Shown piece after piece: positions 1-43,907 of a DNA stretch of 64,000 bases (the stretch's first letter is position 1; the number at the start of each line of letters is the position of its first letter). The DNA lies in the IMG/VR virus record IMGVR_UViG_3300027867_000005, positions 506 to 64,505 of that record; one strand, written 5' to 3'. The notes beneath the pieces are model-generated. The model saw only the letters and a list, made by a program, of their open reading frames with translations, made no database searches and had not been told where the DNA came from. The position numbers and the translations under genes are program-made. The DNA is from a virus. Taxonomy: Duplodnaviria; Caudoviricetes.

Positions 1-3000
1 GATCTCATCACCCTCGCAGGCGGCGTATATGTGTTGCCGGCGGTTCTGTCGGTCACGAACACGACGCTGGTCGCGCTGCTCCTCAATAATCCGGGGATCG
101 GCAATTACGCGCCTGGAGACACGATCCATCTGGCGGGCGGCACCCAATCGACGCCGGCCTTCGTGACGGTGCAGACCACAAAGGTCGTTTCGGCTACGGT
201 CGCCGCGGGAGGGACTGGCGGCACCAACGGGACGCAGACGGTCACCGGCACGACGGGCACCGGCACAAAATTCCAGGCATCGGTAACCGTTGCGGGCGGC
301 GCGATAACCGCAGTCCTCGGCATCCTCGTTGGCGGCGACTACACGGTCAACCCGACGACGCCCGCGACGGAACCGGTCACGGGGGCAAGCCTCACCGGCG
401 CGCAATTGGATATCGTGATCGGCGTGCGCAGCATCACGCTCACCAATGGCGGCGTCTTTACCGCGAACGCTTCCAGCGGCACGTTCACCCAGGCGTCGAG
501 CTCTGGCACTGGCACGGGCGCAACATTCGTTGGCGGCATCTTCGGTCCGAACGTGCTGGCGATCTCCACCGCAGGCATTTACTCGGTCCTCCCGAGCAAC
601 CCGGTTTCGCAGGCATCGACCACCGGAGCAAGTGGTTTCGGGGCCACCTTCACGATGACCAGCGGGGCCACTGCGGCGTTCAACAACGGCGATTGGGTAT
701 TCTTCCGGAATGTCGGCGGCATGACGCAGTTGAACGGCAACACCTACATCGTTGCCGGTGTCTCCGGGGTCAATTTCAGTCTGACCGATCTTGATGGCAA
801 TGCCATCGACTCGACGAGCTACGGCGTCTTTACCAGCGGCGGCACCGTCGCGCGCATCTACACGCTGACGACCCCATACGCCGCCGCCGATCTTCCCTAT
901 CTGAAATACACGCAGGACACCGACACGATGTCGCTGACCTGCGTCAATATCTCGACGGGAACAGAATACCCGCCGCAGGAACTGAAGCGTTTCGGGGCGA
1001 CCAATTGGACGATCGCGCCGCTTGCGATCGGCGCGGTAGTCCCGGCTCCTACGGGCCTCACCGCCACGGCATCGAACAATCCGGATAGCGGCGCAAGCCC
1101 GCCGACGCAACCCTGCGCCTATGCCTATGTCGTGACGGCGGTCGACCTCGTGACGGGGCAGCAGAGCATCGCTAGCGCGCGCGCCGATGTCGTCAACACC
1201 GTCGACATGAGCGTGACGGCGGGATCGATCACGCTCCAATGGAACTCGATAAACTGGAACAATCCGGTCGCCTATAATGTCTACCGGACGGCGCCAGCAT
1301 ATAATACCGGAGGGAGCACGACCGTGGCGCTTCCGGTTCCGGCGGGGGCGCAGTTCTTCTTTGTCGGGCTGTCTTACGGGACGCAGCTCGTCGACACCAA
1401 CACGGTAACCGACGCCTCGACAACCCCGCCGCTGCACATCGACCCCTTCGCACCCGGCCAGGTGCAAAGCGTCCGTATCACCGCCAGCAGCAACGATTGG
1501 ACGACGGCAACCGCATCAATCACGTCGGGAACAGGCTCGGGTTGGATCGGAGAATGCGTGATCGTCGACGGTTCCATCGTCGCCATCATCGTGCTCGATC
1601 CGGGGATGAACTATACCTCGGCCGATACTCTTTCGGTCTCGGGCACCGGTACCAGCGTCACCGGCGCTCTCAACGTCGGGCCGCAGAGCGGCACCTATCC
1701 CGGCGTGACCGCGTATTTTCAAACGCGCCGGATTTACGCCAACACCCGCAACCAGCCCGACACGTTCTTTACCTCGCAGTCGGAGAACTTCACCGATTTC
1801 GACTCCTCTAACCCCCCGGTCGCCGATGATGCGATCACGGCATCGCCTTTCAGCCAGACAGTCGACGGCATCCAGTGGCTTTTGCCGACGCTGGGCGGTC
1901 TCGTCATTCTCACCGGCAACGGGGCTTGGCAGGTCACGGGAACGGGCGGAAGCGCATTTGCGCCGGTGCCTATCACGCCGTCCTCGCTCGAAGCAACGCC
2001 GCAGGCGGTCAACGGCGCCGATGCGGTGTGCATGCCGACCAAGGTCAACAATGATATCCTCTATCTGTCGTCGACCGGCCAATTCTATTACGAACTGAAC
2101 TACACGATCTATTTCAACAGCTTCACCGTCGTCGACATCTCGTGGACATCGGCGCATTTCTTCCTCGGCCAGACGATCAGGCAAAATGCGTGGTGTCTTC
2201 AGCCGTACAAGATCCTTTGGGCGGTGCGCGGAGACGGAGCGTTCCTGTCGCTGACCTGGCTCAAAGAGCAGGAGGTTGTCGGCTGGACGCGGCACGATAC
2301 GCAGGGCGTGGTGCAGGGTGTCTGTACCGTCACCGAGCCGCCCGTCGATGCGCTCTACATGATAGTGCAGCGTTTCGTTCAAAGCCGGTGGCTCTATTTC
2401 GCCGAGCGGATGGACAACCGCATCTGGAACGATGTCGAGACGACATGGTGCGTCGACTGCGGTCTCTCGACGCTGACGGCCGCTGCCTATCCCAGCGGCA
2501 TTCTGACGGTATCGGCGGCGACGGGCTCGCTCATCACGGTGCAGTCATCACAGGCGAATTTCGCGCCCGCCAATGTCGGCGACATCATCCGGGCCGGCGG
2601 CGGCATCCTCACGATAACCGCCTATTCGACAAGCCAGTTGGTCACCGGCACGTGGACGAAGCCGCTGACCGCGCTCATCCCCAATGATCCCCTCGGAACG
2701 CCGCTCCCCATTCCTGCGGGTCAATGGTCGATGCTTCCGCAGGTCACCGTCGTGACGGGGCTGTCGCATCTCGCCAATAAGCGGGTCGTCGGGCTGCTCG
2801 ATGGTATCCCGATCGGCGGCGGCGCGGCCGCCAATCCTAATTTCCCCGGCCCCTACATCGTGAGCAGTACCGGATCGCTGACGTTGCCGTTCGAAGCGAG
2901 CCTCGTCACAATCGGTCTCGCCTTTACCCCGCAAGTGCAATCGCTTTATCTGGACGAAGGACAGCCAACGGTGCAGACGCGGCGCAAGGTCATCAACAAC

Positions 3001-3384
3001 GCATCGGCGCGGCTCGCGGCATCGGGATGGCCGTTCGTGTCGATCAACCAGCCGGACGGAAGCTCGCTTGACCCGATGGAAATCGCGCCCCCATGGGCAT
3101 TGGGACAGAAGATGCGGCCAACCCCGCCAGGACAGACATCACCAAGCCCGCCCTACCAGACGGCAGCGGGACAGACCGTACAGCCGCTGACGACAGGCGA
3201 TGTCTATTCCAATGTCATTGCCACATGGCGCAAGCCGGGCCAGCTTGCCCTGCAACAGCCGCTTCCGCTTCCGCTCAACGTAACGGCCTTTGTGGTCAAT
3301 GATGTTCCGGGCGATCTTCCGGAAGCCGGGATTTCGCCGCGGCAACAGCCTCCACCGCGCGGGCCGCAGAGACGGGCGACATGA
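1..3384 (+). CDS. Tail tubular protein B / nozzle (T7 gp12, P22 gp10-like), 5' truncated, with Gly/Thr-rich inserts and an E1-FCCH-like domain
   Basis: Frame is open from base 1. Motifs YPGVTAYFQTRRIYANT, WLKEQEVVGWTRHDT and GLSHLANKRV. Segment NGDWVFFRNVGGMTQLNGNTY resembles the FCCH-like insert. Lies just upstream of the internal virion genes. Confidence 0.85.
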   Translation, partial: DLITLAGGVYVLPAVLSVTNTTLVALLLNNPGIGNYAPGDTIHLAGGTQSTPAFVTVQTTKVVSATVAAGGTGGTNGTQTVTGTTGTGTKFQASVTVAGGAITAVLGILVGGDYTVNPTTPATEPVTGASLTGAQLDIVIGVRSITLTNGGVFTANASSGTFTQASSSGTGTGATFVGGIFGPNVLAISTAGIYSVLPSNPVSQASTTGASGFGATFTMTSGATAAFNNGDWVFFRNVGGMTQLNGNTYIVAGVSGVNFSLTDLDGNAIDSTSYGVFTSGGTVARIYTLTTPYAAADLPYLKYTQDTDTMSLTCVNISTGTEYPPQELKRFGATNWTIAPLAIGAVVPAPTGLTATASNNPDSGASPPTQPCAYAYVVTAVDLVTGQQSIASARADVVNTVDMSVTAGSITLQWNSINWNNPVAYNVYRTAPAYNTGGSTTVALPVPAGAQFFFVGLSYGTQLVDTNTVTDASTTPPLHIDPFAPGQVQSVRITASSNDWTTATASITSGTGSGWIGECVIVDGSIVAIIVLDPGMNYTSADTLSVSGTGTSVTGALNVGPQSGTYPGVTAYFQTRRIYANTRNQPDTFFTSQSENFTDFDSSNPPVADDAITASPFSQTVDGIQWLLPTLGGLVILTGNGAWQVTGTGGSAFAPVPITPSSLEATPQAVNGADAVCMPTKVNNDILYLSSTGQFYYELNYTIYFNSFTVVDISWTSAHFFLGQTIRQNAWCLQPYKILWAVRGDGAFLSLTWLKEQEVVGWTRHDTQGVVQGVCTVTEPPVDALYMIVQRFVQSRWLYFAERMDNRIWNDVETTWCVDCGLSTLTAAAYPSGILTVSAATGSLITVQSSQANFAPANVGDIIRAGGGILTITAYSTSQLVTGTWTKPLTALIPNDPLGTPLPIPAGQWSMLPQVTVVTGLSHLANKRVVGLLDGIPIGGGAAANPNFPGPYIVSSTGSLTLPFEASLVTIGLAFTPQVQSLYLDEGQPTVQTRRKVINNASARLAASGWPFVSINQPDGSSLDPMEIAPPWALGQKMRPTPPGQTSPSPPYQTAAGQTVQPLTTGDVYSNVIATWRKPGQLALQQPLPLPLNVTAFVVNDVPGDLPEAGISPRQQPPPRGPQRRAT

Positions 3385-38456: not shown

Positions 38457-38894
38457 ATGGCCAAATCAGGCGGTTTCCGACCGGGCGCGGGTCGCCCCAA
38501 GGGGGCAAAGAGCCGCTCCCTCGAAGATCGCATCCTCAGCCGTGACCACGTCGGCCGGCGCGCCAACAAGCGCTTTCCGATCCTGACTGCGGCCGTCGCC
38601 AAGAAGATCATTTCCGAGGCCATCCTCTGCGGACAGACGCCGCTCGAGGTGATGCTGTTCACGATGCGGTGGCATTTCACCGATGGCCGGTTCGACGACG
38701 CAGCGCGTGTGGCGAAGGACGCCGCGCCCTACATGCACCCGCATTTGACTTCGACGAAGGTCGAAATTCGCCGCCCCGAAGACATGACCGATGACGAGCT
38801 GGCAGCACACCTTGCCGCAGCAGAGGCCGCGCTCGAAAATGGCGGCGGACTGGGCGAAGATACTCCGCCAGGAACAAGCCAGACGCGCCATTGA
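38457..38894 (+). CDS. terS: Terminase small subunit
   Basis: GGFRPGAGRPKG...TPLEVML...AKDAAPYMHP...MTDDEL; directly upstream of TerL. Confidence 0.8.
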   Translation: MAKSGGFRPGAGRPKGAKSRSLEDRILSRDHVGRRANKRFPILTAAVAKKIISEAILCGQTPLEVMLFTMRWHFTDGRFDDAARVAKDAAPYMHPHLTSTKVEIRRPEDMTDDELAAHLAAAEAALENGGGLGEDTPPGTSQTRH

Positions 38895-40431
38895 CGCCGA
38901 TCGGGCGCGTGAGGTTTATCTGACACAGGCAGAGCGTCGCACACGGCTGTACCGGCTGTACCCTGAAACCGGACCGTTGCGCCGCGAGCTCTACCCGAAG
39001 CACATGGAGTTCTTTGCGCTAGGCGCAGTACACAGCGAACGCGCGTTCATAGGCGGCAATCGCTGCATTACCCCATGGACGCCCATTGAAATGGCGCGGT
39101 CCACGCGCCTGCCCGCAGAAATTCTCGGCGAGCGTAGCCTAGATGTTCGATCGTGGGCTGATGGATCGCGATGTGGTGCTCAAGCCTCCGGCGTATTTCT
39201 GAAGGGCATAGAGCCAGCGTTTCGAGTTCACTTGGACAACGGACAAGCTTTTGATTGCTCGGGTGCGCACCGGGTATTGAGCGTCGCGGGCTGGATTGAG
39301 TTCGGCCTGTTAATGTCGCTCTCAGATGGTCTGCGTTTGAAGGATAGAGCGCTAGATTATCCGGCCAATTGTGCCACGGCACATTGTCGAGATGATCGGG
39401 CACCTCAGAGCGATCGAGATAACGGCCAAGCACAACCTCCATCACCAGGCGATGCTCGCCAACGCGCCCTGTCGATGATCGAGCGTGCTGGTGAAGAGGA
39501 GCAAAAATTCCGATATATCCATGCTTATCCAGGGATCGGCGGCCCCTCCATTCTTGACGACCCGGACCAGCTCGCGGACCTGATCGGGCAGTTTGAAGAC
39601 CCCATTTCAGTACCCGGCGCTCTATTGACCGAATATGAACGCCGAGAATATCAGCGGCTTGTCGCTGAGTTAGGCCCTCTTGCAGCAGAAGCATCTGGAG
39701 GTGATCTCGATCGATCAAGTTGGCAGCCAGATTGTCGGCTCTTTTTCCCATTTCGGCACATCCCATTGATTGGTGGGAATAGGATTGTATGCGCCGAGGC
39801 GCTAGGTTTCCAGCCAATCCTCGACATCGAGGTCTACGGCACGCACTGCTACGAAACTGGCGGCGTGATCCATCACAATACTGGGAAAAGTTTTTGCATC
39901 GGGTATGAGGGCACGTGCCACCTGATCGGCTGGTACCCCGATTGGTGGACCGGCCGCCGGTTCAATCGGCCTGTCATAGGTTGGGCGGCGGGCGAAGATG
40001 CGAAGGCTGTGCGAGAGTCCTTGCAGCCGACGCTCTGCGGGCCAGCCGAGGCGCGCGGGACGGGGCTGATCCCTGGCGAAATGATTTTACGCTCCCCAAC
40101 GCGCAGCGGCATCCCCGACGCGATCGATTTCGTCGAGGTGAACCATTCATCCGGCGGTCGCAGTCGCTTGGTCTTCAAGGCTTACGAGCAGGGGCGAGAG
40201 AGCTTCCAGGCTTCGCGGATCGATTTCGCCCTGCTCGACGAGGAGCCACCGTTGCACATCTACACCGAGACGCTGACACGAACGCTATCGACGGTGCCGG
40301 GAGAGGCAAACGGCTTGGTGCTGTGTGCCTTCACGCCCCTGAAGGGTGTCAGCGAGACGGTGCTGCAATTCCTGCCAGGTGGCGCTTACCCTGCGACGGA
40401 GGAATTACGCAAGCAAGCCTGGGGGTGGTGA
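38839..40431 (+). CDS. terL: Terminase large subunit, ATPase half, intein-containing
   Basis: Walker A GGNR|TGKS split by an intein; YEQGRESFQ; LDEEPP Walker B; FTPLKG. Confidence 0.92.
   Translation: MAADWAKILRQEQARRAIDADRAREVYLTQAERRTRLYRLYPETGPLRRELYPKHMEFFALGAVHSERAFIGGNRCITPWTPIEMARSTRLPAEILGERSLDVRSWADGSRCGAQASGVFLKGIEPAFRVHLDNGQAFDCSGAHRVLSVAGWIEFGLLMSLSDGLRLKDRALDYPANCATAHCRDDRAPQSDRDNGQAQPPSPGDARQRALSMIERAGEEEQKFRYIHAYPGIGGPSILDDPDQLADLIGQFEDPISVPGALLTEYERREYQRLVAELGPLAAEASGGDLDRSSWQPDCRLFFPFRHIPLIGGNRIVCAEALGFQPILDIEVYGTHCYETGGVIHHNTGKSFCIGYEGTCHLIGWYPDWWTGRRFNRPVIGWAAGEDAKAVRESLQPTLCGPAEARGTGLIPGEMILRSPTRSGIPDAIDFVEVNHSSGGRSRLVFKAYEQGRESFQASRIDFALLDEEPPLHIYTETLTRTLSTVPGEANGLVLCAFTPLKGVSETVLQFLPGGAYPATEELRKQAWGW
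39064..39879 (+). mobile_element. 272-aa intein in the TerL P-loop
   Basis: C1 (CITPWTPI), block B CSGAHRV, block F ILDIEV..THCY, terminal HHN followed by Thr+1. Confidence 0.92.
39068..39751 (-). CDS. HTH-HNH homing endonuclease encoded antisense inside the intein
   Basis: LTQRQAADILGVHIRSIERR HTH; WRGRR..DKHGYI; EHRLVMEVVLGRYL...DHLDNVPWHNWPDNL HNH_3-like motif. Confidence 0.82.
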   Translation of the reverse strand: MGKRADNLAANLIDRDHLQMLLLQEGLTQRQAADILGVHIRSIERRVLKWGLQTARSGPRAGPGRQEWRGRRSLDKHGYIGIFAPLHQHARSSTGRVGEHRLVMEVVLGRYLDRSEVPDHLDNVPWHNWPDNLALYPSNADHLRATLTGRTQSSPRRSIPGAHPSNQKLVRCPSELETLALCPSEIRRRLEHHIAIHQPTIEHLGYARREFLRAGAWTAPFQWASMG

Positions 40432-40432
40432 G

Positions 40433-41227
40433 GTGACCAAGGCCGTCGTTCAGGCCGGCTGGGATGAAACGCCACATCTGAGCGAAGAAGCCCGCCAGCA
40501 GCTCATCAACTCCTATCCCCCGCATGAGCGCGACGCACGCACTCGCGGGGTGCCCCAGCTCGGTTCGGGGGCGATCTATCCGGTTCCTGAGACGGAGATC
40601 GTCGTCGAGCCATTCGAGTGGCCGCATTTCTGGAAGCAATGCTACGCGCTCGATGTCGGATGGAATCGTACTGCAGCGCTTTGGGCTGCTTATGACAGCG
40701 AGCACGATGTCGCCTATCTGGTGAGCGAGCATTACCGGGCGCAAGCCGAACCGCCGATCCATGCACAGGCAATTCTCGCGCGCGGCAAGTGGATACCGGG
40801 CGTCATTGATCCGGCGGCACGGGGCAGGAGCCAACGCGATGGCCAAGACCTCTTCGGCATCTACACCGACCTCGGGCTCAGGCTCAGCCCTGCCGATAAC
40901 GCCGTCGAGGCTGGCATTTATGAGGTTTGGACGCGCCTCTCGACCGGACGGCTCAAGGTCTTTTCGACGCTCACGAATTGGCGGGCGGAATATCGGCTCT
41001 ATCGTCGAGACGAGAAGGGGCGCGTCGTCAAGGAGCACGATCATTTGATGGACTGCTGCCGCTATCTCGTGATGACCGGTCTCGACATCGCGGCATTCAA
41101 GCCGCGCGAGCAGCGCTCTGGCCCACAGATGAAGGCCGACTACCGCCCGATCGAAGCCTGGGACCAGTCGCGCGGCGGTGGCCGCAACGTCGCCAACGGA
41201 CCGTATCGTCCGTATGGAGCAGGCTGA
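40433..41227 (+). CDS. terL: Terminase large subunit, nuclease half (separate +1 frame)
   Basis: WDETPHL, PQLGSGAIYP, LDVGWN, IDPA, HDHLMDCCRY (RNase H fold). Confidence 0.9.
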   Translation: MTKAVVQAGWDETPHLSEEARQQLINSYPPHERDARTRGVPQLGSGAIYPVPETEIVVEPFEWPHFWKQCYALDVGWNRTAALWAAYDSEHDVAYLVSEHYRAQAEPPIHAQAILARGKWIPGVIDPAARGRSQRDGQDLFGIYTDLGLRLSPADNAVEAGIYEVWTRLSTGRLKVFSTLTNWRAEYRLYRRDEKGRVVKEHDHLMDCCRYLVMTGLDIAAFKPREQRSGPQMKADYRPIEAWDQSRGGGRNVANGPYRPYGAG

Positions 41228-41228
41228 C

Positions 41229-41513
41229 ATGGGTTTCCTGTCGCCAGCGCCGGTACCGGCCCCGCCGCCTCCGCCACCGGCACCACCACCGCCGCCGACA
41301 ATCGCCAACGCTAGCACCCAGGCCGCAGGTGCGGCGGCAGGGGCCAGTGCTGCGGCTGCAGGGGGCGCGTATGGGGGGACGTTGCTCACCTCCGGGCAGG
41401 GTGTGCCCGCGCCAGCCACGGCGACCAAAGAGTTACTCGGGCAAAGTATTTTGTTGGCGATGATCTTTGGTAAGGTTATCTTCGCTGCATGCCATTCGCA
41501 CGGATTGATCTGA
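41229..41513 (+). CDS. Small Pro/Ala-rich virion protein upstream of the portal
   Basis: TLLTSGQG...KELLGQ motif typical of this gene position, followed by a 22-aa extension. Confidence 0.7.
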   Translation: MGFLSPAPVPAPPPPPPAPPPPPTIANASTQAAGAAAGASAAAAGGAYGGTLLTSGQGVPAPATATKELLGQSILLAMIFGKVIFAACHSHGLI

Positions 41514-42004
41514 TTGGGCTTCGCTTCGGGCGACTTTGCGTTAAAGCCCTCGTGAGGGTTACGCCTAGTGGAAGTCTCTGGCACTGTGAATGCGACTGCG
41601 GTGGTTCATGCGAGGCCACAACTTCGCGACTGAAGCGCACGCCAAATGTAGGCTGCAAAAGTTGTGAGACCGAGCGCCGCGCCGCCGTACAGTCAAAGCA
41701 CGGCGAGAGCAGGGGCAACTCGAACGGCGGTAAAACAAAACTCTACATGATCTGGAAAGGCATGCATAGTCGATGCCGCGACCCAGGCAACACGAGTTGG
41801 AAGTATTATGGCGGGAAGGGCATTACCGTTTGTACCGAGTGGGCAACTTACGTGCCGTTTCGTGATTGGGCGCTCGCTAATGGTTACAAAGAGGGGCTGA
41901 GTATCGAGCGTGAAAATCCCCAACTCAATTATGTGCCCGAGAACTGCGAATGGATTACTCGCGGTGAAAACAGCCGAAGGGCTCATCTGCGCACAAGATG
42001 CTGA
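41489..42004 (+). CDS. Free-standing HNH-like endonuclease
   Basis: GLRFGRL, WHCECDCG, YYGGKGITVC, SIERENPQLNYVPENCEW. Confidence 0.85.
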   Translation: MPFARIDLIGLRFGRLCVKALVRVTPSGSLWHCECDCGGSCEATTSRLKRTPNVGCKSCETERRAAVQSKHGESRGNSNGGKTKLYMIWKGMHSRCRDPGNTSWKYYGGKGITVCTEWATYVPFRDWALANGYKEGLSIERENPQLNYVPENCEWITRGENSRRAHLRTRC

Positions 42005-42080: not shown

Positions 42081-43907
42081 ATGCCCCTCGACGGGATATC
42101 AGTAGGGAGCGAGCCGGGTACGATCGGGCCGATGTTTCTGGCGCGGCAGCCAGTCTCTGCCCCTGCACCGAAGCGCATTGAGCCGTGGCCGGCCTATTAT
42201 GCTCACTACACCGCGCGCTTGGGGGCGCTCCGGGTATGGAGATACTCGTGGTGGGTGCATTGGGCTCGCTGCGCCGAGTTCATCCTGCCCTACCGTTACC
42301 GGTGGCTTGTCACCGCGAATACCTTCAATCGCGGCTACCCGGTCAACGATCGCATCATCGACGAGACCGCGCTTCTGGCGATGCAAGTCTGCGGGCATGG
42401 GTTGCTCGCAGGGCTCATGGGCGGGGAGTGGTTCAAGCTCGGTCTCGGGCTTGCCGGCGAGGAACCGCCTGACGCTGCGGCGCGTGAGTGGCTGAAGACC
42501 GTTCAGGACCGGCTCTATGCGGTGCTCGACGGCTCGAACTTCTACACGATCATGGCGCAGGCGATGCGCGACGTGGCGACGTTCGGAACGGCTCCCGTGC
42601 TTATCAACGAGGATTTCGAGGACGTAATCCGCTGCTATCTGCCGTGCGCCGGGGAGTATTACCTCGCAGTGGGCGGCCGGCTCGCAGTCGACACGTTCTA
42701 TCGCGAATTCACATTTACCGTTGCGCAGATCGTCGATCGCTTCAAACTTGAGAACTGCCCCGAGGAAGTCCAGCAGTTTTGGCGCACCGGTGGTGCTTCG
42801 CTTGAGCGCGAGTTTGTGATTTGCCACGCCATTGAGCCGAATTTCCCGATCGCCGGCAAAGGCACGCGGGGGAATGCGGTTTATCTGGTGCCGAAGGGTT
42901 TCACCTGGCGCTCGGTCTACTGGATACGCGGCGAGCAGAATATGGCGCCGCTGGAAGCTCGTGGGGAGCACGATCAGCCATTTGCGGTAGCGGCGTGGAC
43001 GCGCACGAGCAACGATGCCTACGGCCGCGGTCCTGGGATGGACGCATTGGCTGCCACCCGGCAGTTGCAGCATGAGCAGGAGCGGAAGGGCGAATTTATT
43101 GACAAGGGTGTTCGGCCGCCGATGGGCGCGCATCCGCAGCTCGAGCATAAGCCGGCATCGATCCTTCCCGGTGAATTGACCTTCGTCAACACGAGCACAG
43201 GCGAAAAGGGCTTCTGGCCGCTATTCGAGGTCAACCCGGCGCACCTGGCTCCGATGATCGAGGACATCAAGGAAGTTCAGGAGCGTATCAATCGCTGCTT
43301 CTATACCGATGTTTTCCTGATGATTACGCAGATGGAGGGCATCCAGCCGCGGAACGAGCTTGAGCTTGCGGAGCGCAAGGGTGAGAAAATTCAGCAGCTT
43401 GGCCCGGTCATCCTGCACTTTCAGACCGAATTCGCGCCAACGGTCATTCACCGCGTGCTGGGGATCATGCAGCGGCGCCGGCTCTTTCCGCCACCGCCCC
43501 CCTCGGTACGCAACAAGCCGCTCAACATTGAGTTTCTATCGATGATGGAACTGGCCCAGCGTGCGGCCGAGACGGCAAGCATGGAGCGAGGTTTCTCGGT
43601 GCTGGGCTCACTGTCCGAAGCCTCGAAAGCCGCGCAGCAGCCAGATCCGATCCGTACCGTCAATTTGGACAAGGCGTGGAATTTCTATGCTGAGCGTGTC
43701 GGGTTCCCGATGACGGTGATGCGTTCGGCCCGCGAGGTCGCGGCGATCGACAAGGCCAACGCGCAAGCCGCGCAGCAAGCGCAGGCGGCGCAAGCCGGGA
43801 TGGCCGCAGTGTCGGCGGGTCAGGGCCTCAGCAATATACAGGTCGGGGGCGGCCAGAATGCGGTGAGTGCGTTGCTCGGCAATGGTCCGGTCGCAGGGAG
43901 CGCATGA
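42081..43907 (+). CDS. Portal (head-to-tail connecting protein, Bbp21/T7 gp8-like)
   Basis: SNFY, TFGTA, YGRGPGMDAL, ERKGEK..QLGP motifs. Confidence 0.92.
   Translation: MPLDGISVGSEPGTIGPMFLARQPVSAPAPKRIEPWPAYYAHYTARLGALRVWRYSWWVHWARCAEFILPYRYRWLVTANTFNRGYPVNDRIIDETALLAMQVCGHGLLAGLMGGEWFKLGLGLAGEEPPDAAAREWLKTVQDRLYAVLDGSNFYTIMAQAMRDVATFGTAPVLINEDFEDVIRCYLPCAGEYYLAVGGRLAVDTFYREFTFTVAQIVDRFKLENCPEEVQQFWRTGGASLEREFVICHAIEPNFPIAGKGTRGNAVYLVPKGFTWRSVYWIRGEQNMAPLEARGEHDQPFAVAAWTRTSNDAYGRGPGMDALAATRQLQHEQERKGEFIDKGVRPPMGAHPQLEHKPASILPGELTFVNTSTGEKGFWPLFEVNPAHLAPMIEDIKEVQERINRCFYTDVFLMITQMEGIQPRNELELAERKGEKIQQLGPVILHFQTEFAPTVIHRVLGIMQRRRLFPPPPPSVRNKPLNIEFLSMMELAQRAAETASMERGFSVLGSLSEASKAAQQPDPIRTVNLDKAWNFYAERVGFPMTVMRSAREVAAIDKANAQAAQQAQAAQAGMAAVSAGQGLSNIQVGGGQNAVSALLGNGPVAGSA

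What the first reader, a model, noticed from the sequence alone, without database searches (positions are those of the whole stretch)
39064..39879. Intein whose homing endonuclease is written on the antisense strand
Seen: a 272-aa intein with intact splicing blocks interrupts the TerL Walker A (GGNR|TGKS). Its central region has no recognisable LAGLIDADG or HNH motif in the sense frame. The opposite strand carries an uninterrupted 227-aa ORF (39751 to 39068) with an HTH and an HNH_3-type core. That ORF lies wholly inside the intein, overlaps the N-terminal splicing domain and stops 4 nt inside the splice junction. Knowledge: canonical inteins carry the nuclease in frame. Inference: this is a double-coded mobile element in which splicing and homing come from opposite strands, so the nuclease can be expressed independently of the late terminase. 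Deviations from the HNH consensus may reflect dual-coding constraint. I cannot confirm novelty; alternative-frame intein nucleases may have been reported.
Basis: partly seen in the sequence, partly recalled or inferred. Interest (0 to 1): 0.92.

Follow-up and report, generated by a model that had tools for sequence, protein, structure and literature searches.

The report
Terminase intein with antisense HNH gene
A phage DNA-packaging gene is interrupted by a self-splicing intein whose DNA-cutting "homing" enzyme is a separate gene on the opposite strand; the layout is real and kept by selection on both strands, but it is an HNH version of an arrangement already described for other nucleases.

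Summary
A 272-codon class-1 intein (39064-39879, +) splits the TerL Walker A (GGNR|TGKS). A 227-codon HTH-HNH ORF (39751-39068, -) lies wholly inside it, and its stop codon begins 4 nt after the first intein base.

Both frames are real. The sense frame matches mini-inteins by sequence and fold. The antisense frame matches HNH families.

In 17 of 17 close relatives, and in 56 of 56 unique related viral loci, both frames are stop-free. Synonymous shuffles predict 2-7 stops per locus.

Codon-position conservation shows three regimes:
- Sense-only in the C-terminal splicing half.
- Antisense-only in the middle, where the sense product is a disordered read-through.
- Dual constraint over the roughly 88 codons of the N-terminal splicing half.

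Intein-free alleles exist in the closest terminases. Homing and expression of the nuclease are inferred, not shown.

Antisense nucleases in inteins are published for LAGLIDADG and VSR-like types (10.1101/2025.01.02.630785). I found no paper on the HNH version. This scan has noted the same layout on other DNA before, in at least 59 genomes. Verdict: a new variant of a known kind.

The parts
38791..39063 (+). TerL N-extein, ending in the first half of Walker A (GGNR). The start codon was not verified.
   Evidence: ORF list and translation. It aligns with L004 TerL. The intein-free relative L092 reads ...ERAFIGGNR|TGKSFCI.
39064..39879 (+). Class-1 intein, 272 codons: Cys1, block B S-G-A-H69, His271-Asn272, then Thr+1.
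   Evidence: C1, H69, H271 and N272 are invariant in 17 of 17. A profile of the family hits DnaB mini-inteins 4o1r at 4.4e-9 and 1mi8 at 1.1e-8. Foldseek hits mini-inteins with TM 0.65-0.77 normalised by target.
39064..39333 (+). N-terminal splicing (Hint) half, residues 1-90. This is the stretch read on both strands.
   Evidence: pLDDT 84-92. Nucleotide identity at codon positions 1/2/3 is 0.62/0.63/0.58, against 0.35-0.37 at position 3 in the exteins and in the C-terminal half.
39334..39738 (+). Sense read-through linker, residues 91-225. It is the reverse-frame translation of the HNH gene, kept stop-free but not conserved as protein.
   Evidence: Amino-acid identity 0.24. Sense position 2 is the least conserved, at 0.39. 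pLDDT is about 31-34 over residues 95-163. No Pfam or PHROG match. No stops, against 5.0 expected.
39739..39879 (+). C-terminal splicing half (blocks F and G), residues 226-272.
   Evidence: pLDDT 74-91. Ordinary sense coding signature, 0.62/0.73/0.37. It matches the C-terminus of 4o1r.
39880..40431 (+). C-extein: the rest of the TerL ATPase domain, from TGKS to the TGA at 40429-40431.
   Evidence: Terminase_6N at 9.7e-12. 78% identical to L092 over 165 aa.
39068..39751 (-). HTH-HNH endonuclease gene: 227 codons plus the TAA stop. Other in-frame starts are ATG 39766 and TTG 39817.
   Evidence: Its ATG aligns with the conserved M-G-K start of relatives. An in-frame ATG lies 125 or 128 nt inside the intein end in 15 of 17 loci.
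39602..39721 (-). Helix-turn-helix DNA-binding domain, nuclease residues 11-50.
   Evidence: HTH_23 hits 17 of 17 family members. pLDDT 83-90. VIA-align gives Z 5.8 to phage repressor and GcrA DNA-binding domains.
39323..39541 (-). HNH core, nuclease residues 71-143: EHRLVMEV..GRYL..EVPDH.D..P.HNWPDNL....NADH.
   Evidence: Pfam HNH_3 matches residues 100-138. Invariant in 17 of 17: E99, H100, H120, D122, H127, N128, N132, N139, H142. Antisense position 3 is the least conserved, at 0.33-0.46.
39071..39322 (-). C-terminal tail of the nuclease, residues 144-227, written antisense to the N-terminal splicing half.
   Evidence: Stop-free in 17 of 17 loci. With the sense protein held fixed, per-locus chance of staying open is 0.017-0.65. 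pLDDT 75-91 for residues 171-220. Invariant P173, T178, L179 and P199.
39784..39812 (-). Promoter-like site, TGGAAA-17 nt-TACAAT, upstream of the nuclease ATG and inside the codons of the C-terminal splicing half.
   Evidence: 1 site found, 0.7 expected from shuffles, so weak on its own. At the same aligned place, a -10-like hexamer matches at least 5 of 6 bases in 8 of 15 relatives, with an exact TATAAT in 4.
40433..41227 (+). Separate ORF for the TerL nuclease domain. Its GTG start lies 1 nt after the TGA of the ATPase ORF, with a GGGGG run 7 nt upstream.
   Evidence: Terminase_6C at 2.3e-8. It aligns with L004 TerL from residue 558. The same break...EELRK.AWGW*, occurs in L092, L100 and L014.

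Best explanation
This is a mobile intein in which the two activities are coded on opposite strands.

Splicing (+ strand). The terL message gives a precursor whose 272-residue insert folds as a mini-intein from its two ends, residues 1-90 and 226-272. The roughly 135 residues between them are a disordered read-through of the nuclease gene. Class-1 splicing (Cys1, His69, His271-Asn272, Thr+1) should rejoin GGNR-TGKS and restore the Walker A of the packaging ATPase.

Nuclease (- strand). A transcript that probably starts inside the codons of the C-terminal splicing half gives a free-standing 227-residue HTH-HNH endonuclease. This enzyme most likely nicks or cuts intein-free terL alleles at the P-loop codons during co-infection. 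Repair from the occupied allele then copies intein and nuclease together (homing).

Shown here: both genes are homologous to their families; both frames are kept open; and selection is antisense-only in the middle, sense-only at the 3' end and dual over the first roughly 88 codons.

Inferred: splicing activity, transcription and translation of the antisense gene, the cleavage target, and homing.
For: - Intein. A profile of 17 sense sequences hits DnaB mini-inteins at 4.4e-9 and 1.1e-8, with both the N- and C-terminal parts aligned. The AlphaFold model has pLDDT 84-92 at both ends and matches mini-intein structures at probability 1.00. C1, H69, H271 and N272 are invariant, and +1 is S, T or C in 17 of 17.
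- Nuclease. PHROG HNH families at 1.3e-17. Pfam HNH_3 in 11 of 17 family members (best 1.4e-6) and HTH_23 in 17 of 17. The HNH motif residues are invariant. Foldseek against BFVD gives 2 unnamed hits at E<=1e-3, then named HNH or homing endonucleases at E 4e-3 to 0.1.
- Conservation. The antisense protein is more conserved than the sense one, at 44-62% against 31-48% identity to the window.
- Open frames. In 17 of 17 loci both frames have 0 stops. Shuffles give 2.3-6.1 stops (antisense frame) and 2.8-7.0 stops (sense frame). The chance of a stop-free frame is at most 0.046 and 0.026. Across all 56 unique loci there are 0 sense-frame stops against a median of 5.7 expected, at GC 0.42-0.68.
- Codon-position identity (s1/s2/s3): exteins 0.58/0.57/0.35 and 0.52/0.54/0.34; C-terminal half 0.62/0.73/0.37; middle 0.60/0.39/0.66; N-terminal half 0.62/0.63/0.58 (same picture).
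- Mobility. 13 of 13 terminases found with the C-extein have an uninterrupted P-loop. They include L092, at 78% identity, with 51 of 60 flanking bases identical. Intein-bearing and intein-free alleles interleave by extein similarity.
- Expression signals. An in-frame ATG lies at a fixed distance in 15 of 17 loci, with a -10-like hexamer upstream.
Against: - There are no expression data at all. The only run that holds this DNA is a DNA run, probably the source sample.
- For this copy, Pfam HNH_3 is below its curated cut-off (20.5-20.7 against 24.8 bits).
- Searches of solved structures found only the HTH domain, not an HNH fold. The model is poor (pLDDT 38-47) over residues 121-140, which hold H127 and N128.
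- The promoter scan found 1 site against 0.7 expected, and the Shine-Dalgarno match of this copy is weak at 4 of 6.
- In this copy alone, the open tail over the N-terminal splicing half is not surprising: chance 0.65. The case for dual selection there rests on the family.
- The related loci share ancestry, so the 17 and 56 are not independent trials.
- The intein-bearing loci were found with the nuclease and the intein-free loci with the extein, so the interleaving is not a formal test of horizontal transfer.
Confidence: 0.75

Rival explanations
1. The family is real, but this copy is a resident relic. The nuclease gene is intact yet no longer expressed or active, and the intein persists only because it must splice.
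For: There is no expression evidence. Pfam HNH_3 is below cut-off for this copy. Its Shine-Dalgarno match is weak. Its open tail is unremarkable on its own. It lacks the extra N-terminal HTH that 11 of 17 relatives carry.
Against: There are no stops over 227 codons, against 4.3 expected. Every family-invariant residue is retained. The ATG and the -10-like hexamer TACAAT sit at the conserved places. Short forms without the extra HTH occur in several other loci that are also intact, namely L003, L005, L008, L022 and L030.
Confidence: 0.12
2. The HNH protein is not a homing enzyme. It is a helper of the phage itself, for instance a terminase-associated HNH needed for DNA cutting during packaging, and it merely lodges inside terL.
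For: HNH genes next to terminase genes are common in phages (abstract of PMC3592412, seen in the listing). This genome has another HNH gene just after terL, at 41489-42004.
Against: 13 of 13 terminases found with the C-extein, including the closest relative L092, lack both the intein and this HNH, so packaging by this terminase type does not need it. Among the 56 unique loci, the HNH always comes nested in an intein at the P-loop. The HTH plus HNH_3 make-up is that of homing enzymes; this last point is from recall, not from a call.
Confidence: 0.08
3. The sense-frame middle is itself a functional domain, such as a new in-frame nuclease or DNA-binding module, and the antisense ORF is a by-product.
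For: The sense frame is kept stop-free. A few sense motifs recur, such as DDP...L..F.DP.
Against: Sense amino-acid identity is 0.24, and sense codon position 2 is the least conserved at 0.39, which is the signature of coding on the other strand. pLDDT is about 32. There are many indels and no family match. The recurring sense motifs lie opposite the conserved antisense motif TARTGPR..G.
Confidence: 0.02
4. It is a chance antisense ORF of a GC-rich genome, or the insert is not an intein.
For: The window has 61% GC, where long spurious ORFs are common; for example, a 411-aa ORF lies antisense to terL at 40349-41584.
Against: The ORF is homologous to HNH families at 1.3e-17. It is open in relatives with GC as low as 0.42. 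The shuffle tests and the intein homology also argue against this.
Confidence: 0.01

Closest known systems
Inteins with an antisense LAGLIDADG homing endonuclease: Synechocystis DnaX, the Chloroflexus SpoVR-like protein, and actinophage examples
   Same: The nuclease is a separate ORF on the strand opposite the intein, nested between the splicing blocks. The sense read-through has no recognisable fold. The proposed origin is invasion of a mini-intein by a free-standing nuclease gene. Source: 10.1101/2025.01.02.630785, passages and section 15 read. That paper cites Gorbalenya 1998 and Gogarten 2002, which I did not see.
   Different: The nuclease here is HTH-HNH, not LAGLIDADG. The host site is the TerL P-loop. 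[quoted passage not shown]
[quoted passage not shown]
   Same: They are phage inteins, several in the terminase large subunit, with a nuclease in another frame or on the other strand. Predicted structures show an unstructured in-frame middle.
   Different: The nuclease family differs. The paper lists HNH only as an in-frame type (section 8).
In-frame HNH inteins, for example the dCTP deaminase intein of cyanophage vB_AphaS-CL131
   Same: A Hint domain plus an HNH_3 nuclease form one mobile insert in a phage gene. Splicing was shown experimentally for that one (PMC6293099, passages read).
   Different: There the HNH_3 domain is part of the intein polypeptide. Here it is a separate protein from the other strand.
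Hidden out-of-frame HNH endonuclease in a phage methylase insertion (ShiLan domain)
   Same: An HNH gene is hidden in another frame of an insertion that stays stop-free in the host gene's frame (PMC11855218, passages read).
   Different: That case is on the same strand (frame 3) and has no splicing domains. Here the gene is on the opposite strand and inside a bona fide intein.
Fractured genes: split inteins with a free-standing nuclease gene between the halves (Dassa et al. 2009, as cited in 10.1101/2025.01.02.630785; not seen)
   Same: A free-standing nuclease gene lies between the N- and C-terminal intein parts.
   Different: Here the sense frame is continuous, with 0 stops in 56 of 56 loci, so the intein is contiguous and not split.

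Membership tests
Class-1 intein (Hint domain) | Nucleophile (Cys, Ser or Thr) at position 1 | tested here: met
   Cys1, invariant in 17 of 17.
Class-1 intein (Hint domain) | Block B Thr/Ser-x-x-His | tested here: met
   S66-G-A-H69; H69 is invariant in 17 of 17. The motif definition is from recall.
Class-1 intein (Hint domain) | C-terminal His-Asn followed by Ser, Thr or Cys at +1 | tested here: met
   H271-N272 are invariant; +1 is Thr here and S, T or C in 17 of 17.
Class-1 intein (Hint domain) | Hint fold and sequence homology to solved inteins | tested here: met
   hmmsearch of the A3 profile hits 4o1r at 4.4e-9 and 1mi8 at 1.1e-8. Foldseek hits 6frg at 1.4e-7 and 4o1r with TM 0.77 by target. 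Pfam Intein_splicing is found in only 3 of 17 members and not in this copy.
Class-1 intein (Hint domain) | Protein splicing activity | not testable with these tools
   This needs expression of the 546-aa precursor.
HNH (His-Me finger) homing endonuclease, HNH_3 type | Match to the family profile | tested here: inconclusive
   Pfam HNH_3 gives 20.5-20.7 bits, below the 24.8-bit cut-off, for this copy. 11 of 17 relatives match at E<=0.01, best 1.4e-6. PHROG HNH families match at 1.3e-17.
HNH (His-Me finger) homing endonuclease, HNH_3 type | Conserved His, Asn and His motif residues | tested here: met
   D119-H120, H127-N128, N132, N139 and H142 are present. H120, N128, N132, N139 and H142 are invariant in 17 of 17. 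Which of them is catalytic is from recall.
HNH (His-Me finger) homing endonuclease, HNH_3 type | Beta-beta-alpha-metal fold | tested here: inconclusive
   The model has strands 72-74, 80-83 and 96-98 and helix 99-108, but pLDDT 38-47 over residues 121-140. PDB searches matched only the HTH. BFVD gave 2 unnamed hits at E<=1e-3, then named HNH or homing endonucleases at E 4e-3 to 0.1.
HNH (His-Me finger) homing endonuclease, HNH_3 type | Site-specific cleavage of the intein-free allele | not testable with these tools
   A candidate target exists in L092, with 51 of 60 flanking bases identical.
Non-canonical inteins with an antisense homing endonuclease | Nuclease ORF on the opposite strand, nested in a contiguous intein | tested here: met
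Non-canonical inteins with an antisense homing endonuclease | Nuclease of LAGLIDADG or VSR-like type (the published types) | tested here: not met
   The nuclease is HTH-HNH. The published types are taken from section 8 of 10.1101/2025.01.02.630785.
Split intein / fractured gene | Host gene and intein broken into two ORFs at the nuclease gene | tested here: not met
   The sense frame is continuous through the nuclease gene: 0 stops here and in 56 of 56 loci.

The most novel reading that the evidence does not exclude
The 264 bases that encode the N-terminal Hint half are also, read backwards, a functional C-terminal domain of the nuclease, with both products under purifying selection. That would make this one of the longest antiparallel dual-coding stretches with selection shown in both frames in a bacterial virus. 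The nuclease would be driven by a promoter and ribosome site written into the codons of the C-terminal splicing half. It would then be made independently of, and perhaps earlier than, the late terminase, and its antisense transcription could also damp terL expression.
Probability: 0.35. Interest if true: 0.75.

Novelty: new variant of a known kind. Interest (0 to 1): 0.58.

Why it matters
- Origin of inteins. It adds HNH to the nuclease types that can serve an intein from the opposite strand. This supports the view that inteins gain mobility when free-standing nuclease genes invade mini-inteins.
- Prevalence. It is common, not a curiosity. At least 444 viral contig stretches encode relatives of this nuclease, and all 56 unique loci among the best 80 have the nested layout.
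- Annotation. Gene finders call only one strand. In Pectobacterium phage Ymer the nuclease is unannotated and the terminase is labelled "hypothetical protein". In Pseudoalteromonas phage PHS3 the nuclease is annotated and the terminase is truncated to an internal Met.
- Overlapping genes. The roughly 88-codon stretch under dual-strand constraint is a natural test case for overlapping-gene evolution.
- Testability. These two cultured phages make expression and homing directly testable.

Tried and rejected
- GC content by codon position did not tell which strand codes. The intein has 0.67/0.49/0.52, with no GC3 peak in either frame.
- A single-sequence search of viral contigs with the antisense protein found nothing: 6 pattern matches, 0 confirmed. 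The alignment query was needed.
- Pfam and PHROGs on the sense intein alone gave 0 families.
- Solved-structure searches with the antisense profile and model gave only HTH matches.
- No RNA holder was listed for this DNA. The single DNA holder is probably the source sample, and its contig is identical over 38791-41227. That says nothing about expression.
- I first read the break in terL at 40429-40433 as a frameshift error in a G5 run. I rejected that reading because L092, L100 and L014 end their ATPase ORFs with the same ...EELRK.AWGW stop.
- I did not build an extein tree to test transfer formally. The two sets of loci were collected by different queries, so such a test would be biased.
- The exact antisense proteins (227 and 249 aa) are not in the large protein collection. 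Only the 546-aa sense ORF is, without a name.
- Literature searches for an antisense HNH in an intein found no such report.
Full report
**What is there.** The window is a 64.5-kb IMG/VR virus record. The + strand ORF 38791..40431 is the ATPase part of a large terminase (Terminase_6N, 9.7e-12). Its Walker A is interrupted...RAFIGGNR | CITPWTPIEM...GGVIHHN | TGKSFCIG. The insert, 39064-39879, is 272 codons.

On the - strand an open frame runs from 39817 to a TAA at 39070-39068. The ATG at 39751 gives 227 residues. The stop begins 4 nt after the first base of the intein.

**The sense frame is a real intein.**
- Alone it matches no Pfam or PHROG family.
- I collected relatives from viral contigs and aligned 17 unique close ones (A3).
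- Cys1, His69 (block B), His271 and Asn272 are invariant, and +1 is Ser, Thr or Cys in 17 of 17.
- A profile of A3 hits the solved DnaB mini-inteins 4o1r (4.4e-9) and 1mi8 (1.1e-8). Both the N-terminal part and the last 33 residues align.
- The AlphaFold model has pLDDT 84-92 for residues 1-90 and 74-91 for 221-272, but about 31-34 for residues 95-163.
- Foldseek matches it to mini-inteins: 6frg at 1.4e-7, and 4o1r with TM 0.77 by target.
- So the two ends form a Hint domain and the middle is not a folded domain.

**The antisense frame is a real HTH-HNH gene.**
- It matches PHROG HNH endonuclease families at 1.3e-17, 9.8e-14 and 1.9e-13.
- It matches Pfam HNH_3 at 3.6e-4, below the curated cut-off.
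- In the 17-member alignment A4, HNH_3 is found in 11 of 17 members (best 1.4e-6) and HTH_23 in 17 of 17.
- The motif EHRLVMEV..GRYL..EV.DH.D..P.HNWP.NL....NA.HL is conserved. E99, H100, H120, D122, H127, N128, N132, N139 and H142 are invariant, and this copy keeps all of them.
- The antisense protein is more conserved than the sense one: 44-62% against 31-48% identity to the window's copy.
- Its model (mean pLDDT 70.9) is confident for the HTH (residues 11-50), for residues 71-120 and for residues 171-220. It is poor over 121-140.
- Solved-structure searches found only the HTH.
- Foldseek against predicted viral structures gave 2 unnamed hits at E<=1e-3, followed by named HNH or homing endonucleases at E 4e-3 to 0.1.
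- The HNH assignment therefore rests on sequence, and the fold test is inconclusive.

**Both frames are kept open by selection.**
Of these, 444 encode relatives, and the best 80 were kept.
- After removing duplicates there are 56 unique loci, including the window. In 56 of 56 a long open frame (424-1147 aa) on the other strand spans the whole HNH match.
- For 33 of the 56, an automatic parse found the junctions G.N[RQ]|C...HN|[ST].K. The 17 close ones were parsed.
- I ran synonymous-codon shuffles, 500 per locus, on the 17 close loci:

| Protein held fixed | Frame tested | Stops expected | Chance of none | Stops observed |
|---|---|---|---|---|
| Sense | Antisense | 2.3-6.1 | 0-0.046 | 0 in 17 of 17 |
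| Antisense | Sense | 2.8-7.0 | 0-0.026 | 0 in 17 of 17 |

- Over all 56 loci (GC 0.42-0.68) the sense frame has 0 stops, against a median of 5.7 expected per locus.
- The loci share ancestry, so these are not independent trials. But they have diverged to 30-50% protein identity, which gave ample time for stops to arise.

**Three selection regimes.** Mean pairwise nucleotide identity by sense codon position (1/2/3) over the 17 loci:

| Region | Position 1 | Position 2 | Position 3 |
|---|---|---|---|
| N-extein | 0.58 | 0.57 | 0.35 |
| C-extein | 0.52 | 0.54 | 0.34 |
| C-terminal splicing half | 0.62 | 0.73 | 0.37 |
| Middle (residues 89-225) | 0.60 | 0.39 | 0.66 |
| N-terminal splicing half (residues 1-88) | 0.62 | 0.63 | 0.58 |

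- The exteins and the C-terminal half show ordinary sense coding.
- In the middle, sense position 2 is antisense position 3. This is therefore the signature of coding on the other strand only, and sense amino-acid identity there is 0.24.
- In the N-terminal half there is no relaxed position.
- The same switch appears in the antisense-based alignment, exactly where the nuclease ORF enters the N-terminal splicing half.
- In this frame arrangement every change that is silent on one strand alters the protein of the other. Flat, high conservation is what dual constraint predicts.
- With the first 85 intein codons held fixed, the antisense frame would stay open with chance 0.017-0.65 per locus. It is open in 17 of 17.
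- For the window alone that chance is 0.65, so the claim of dual selection is a family-level one.
- The high pLDDT of the nuclease tail may partly reflect conservation imposed by the intein strand.

**Expression signals are suggestive only.**
- A sigma-70-like site, TGGAAA-17-TACAAT, lies at 39812-39784 on the - strand. The scan found 1 site against 0.7 expected.
- In 15 of 17 loci an in-frame ATG lies 125 or 128 nt inside the intein's 3' end. The other two have GTG there.
- At the same aligned place, 29-41 nt upstream, a -10-like hexamer matches at least 5 of 6 bases in 8 of 15 loci and is an exact TATAAT in 4. It is written in the codons for R-I-[IV]-A of the C-terminal splicing half.
- The Shine-Dalgarno match of this copy is weak, at 4 of 6.
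- No RNA run holds this DNA.

**Mobility.**
- A search with the C-extein found 13 relatives, and 13 of 13 have an uninterrupted P-loop.
- The nearest, L092, is 78% identical over 165 aa. It reads ...ERAFIGGNR|TGKSFCI, and 51 of 60 bases around its empty site match the window's flanks.
- Four distinct sequences (six loci) have Val at +1, which could not support splicing.
- Ranked by extein identity, intein-free alleles (78, 64, 64, 64, 64, 62, 56... %) and intein-bearing ones (64, 62, 52, 50... down to 26%) interleave.
- This fits horizontal spread. It is not a formal test, because the two sets were collected with different queries.

**Comparison with what is known.**
- Gosselin, Arsenault and Gogarten (10.1101/2025.01.02.630785) list the non-canonical architectures found in about 800 actinophage inteins. 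I read the abstract, passages and section 15. [quoted passage not shown]
- They credit the antisense LAGLIDADG type to Gorbalenya 1998 and Gogarten 2002 (Synechocystis DnaX; Chloroflexus SpoVR-like). I did not see those two papers.
- A 2026 preprint treats the dnaX case as an overlapping-frame LAGLIDADG; I saw the abstract, the outline and one passage.
- PMC11855218 describes a same-strand, out-of-frame HNH in a methylase insertion without splicing domains; I read passages.
- PMC6293099 shows an in-frame HNH_3 intein that splices; I read passages.
- Eight full-text searches found no antisense HNH in an intein.
- The concept is therefore known. New here are the nuclease type, the complete overlap with the N-terminal splicing half, and the size of the family.
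- This scan has met the same layout before on other DNA: 75 notes in at least 59 genomes. Those notes pointed me to the literature above, which I then checked myself.

**Cultured examples.**
- In Pectobacterium phage Ymer, a 754-aa "hypothetical protein" next to the portal is a Terminase_6N/6C protein. It carries an intein at AGFG|C...HHN|TGKS.
- An unannotated 232-aa HTH-HNH ORF lies on its opposite strand.
- In Pseudoalteromonas phage PHS3 the HNH gene is annotated, and the terminase is annotated from an internal Met within block F. The frame is in fact open for 708 aa through the HNH gene.

**Verdict.** It is unproven on expression. It is wrong in blaming HNH motif departures on the overlap. 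It overrates novelty.

Noticed in passing
window 40375-40440; L092 1761-3798: terL is in two ORFs. The ATPase ORF ends ...EELRKQAWGW at the TGA 40429-40431. The nuclease-domain ORF starts at GTG 40433, with a GGGGG run 7 nt upstream. The same ending occurs in L092, L100 and L014, so this is not a sequencing error. In L092 an HNH gene (2444-3061) sits between the halves. In total, 12 of 13 intein-free and 6 of 17 intein-bearing relatives end their ORF 171-192 aa after the P-loop. I could not tell whether this is a split terminase, a reinitiation site or a second mobile-element site.
   Followed up: partly
window 41489-42004 (+): A free-standing HNH endonuclease gene (phrog_374, 8.1e-47) lies between the terminase nuclease ORF and the portal gene 42081-43907. 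It is a different type from the intein-nested one.
   Followed up: no
L106 (genome collection), 2501-3181: A 100% identical copy of the nuclease ORF lies on a 64,441-base contig titled as a Bradyrhizobium sp. metagenome-assembled genome. That is a hint at the host, or a phage contig binned with it. Relatives at 53% identity lie in contigs titled Chitinophagaceae and Candidatus Accumulibacter.
   Followed up: no
L022 and L069: In some relatives the intein sits three residues further on in the same P-loop...G.N.xGK | C...HHN | TS... instead of GGNR | ... | TGKS. The element therefore uses at least two insertion points in the Walker A.
   Followed up: no
L094, L095, L098-L100: Several intein-free terminases have Val at the +1 position (NR|VGK[ST]). 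That residue could not support splicing, so these may be alleles immune to productive invasion.
   Followed up: no
window 40349-41584 (-): A 411-aa ORF lies antisense to the terminase nuclease domain. It is rich in Ala, Gly and Pro and looks like a chance GC-rich ORF. It serves as a reminder that a long antisense ORF alone means little here.
   Followed up: no
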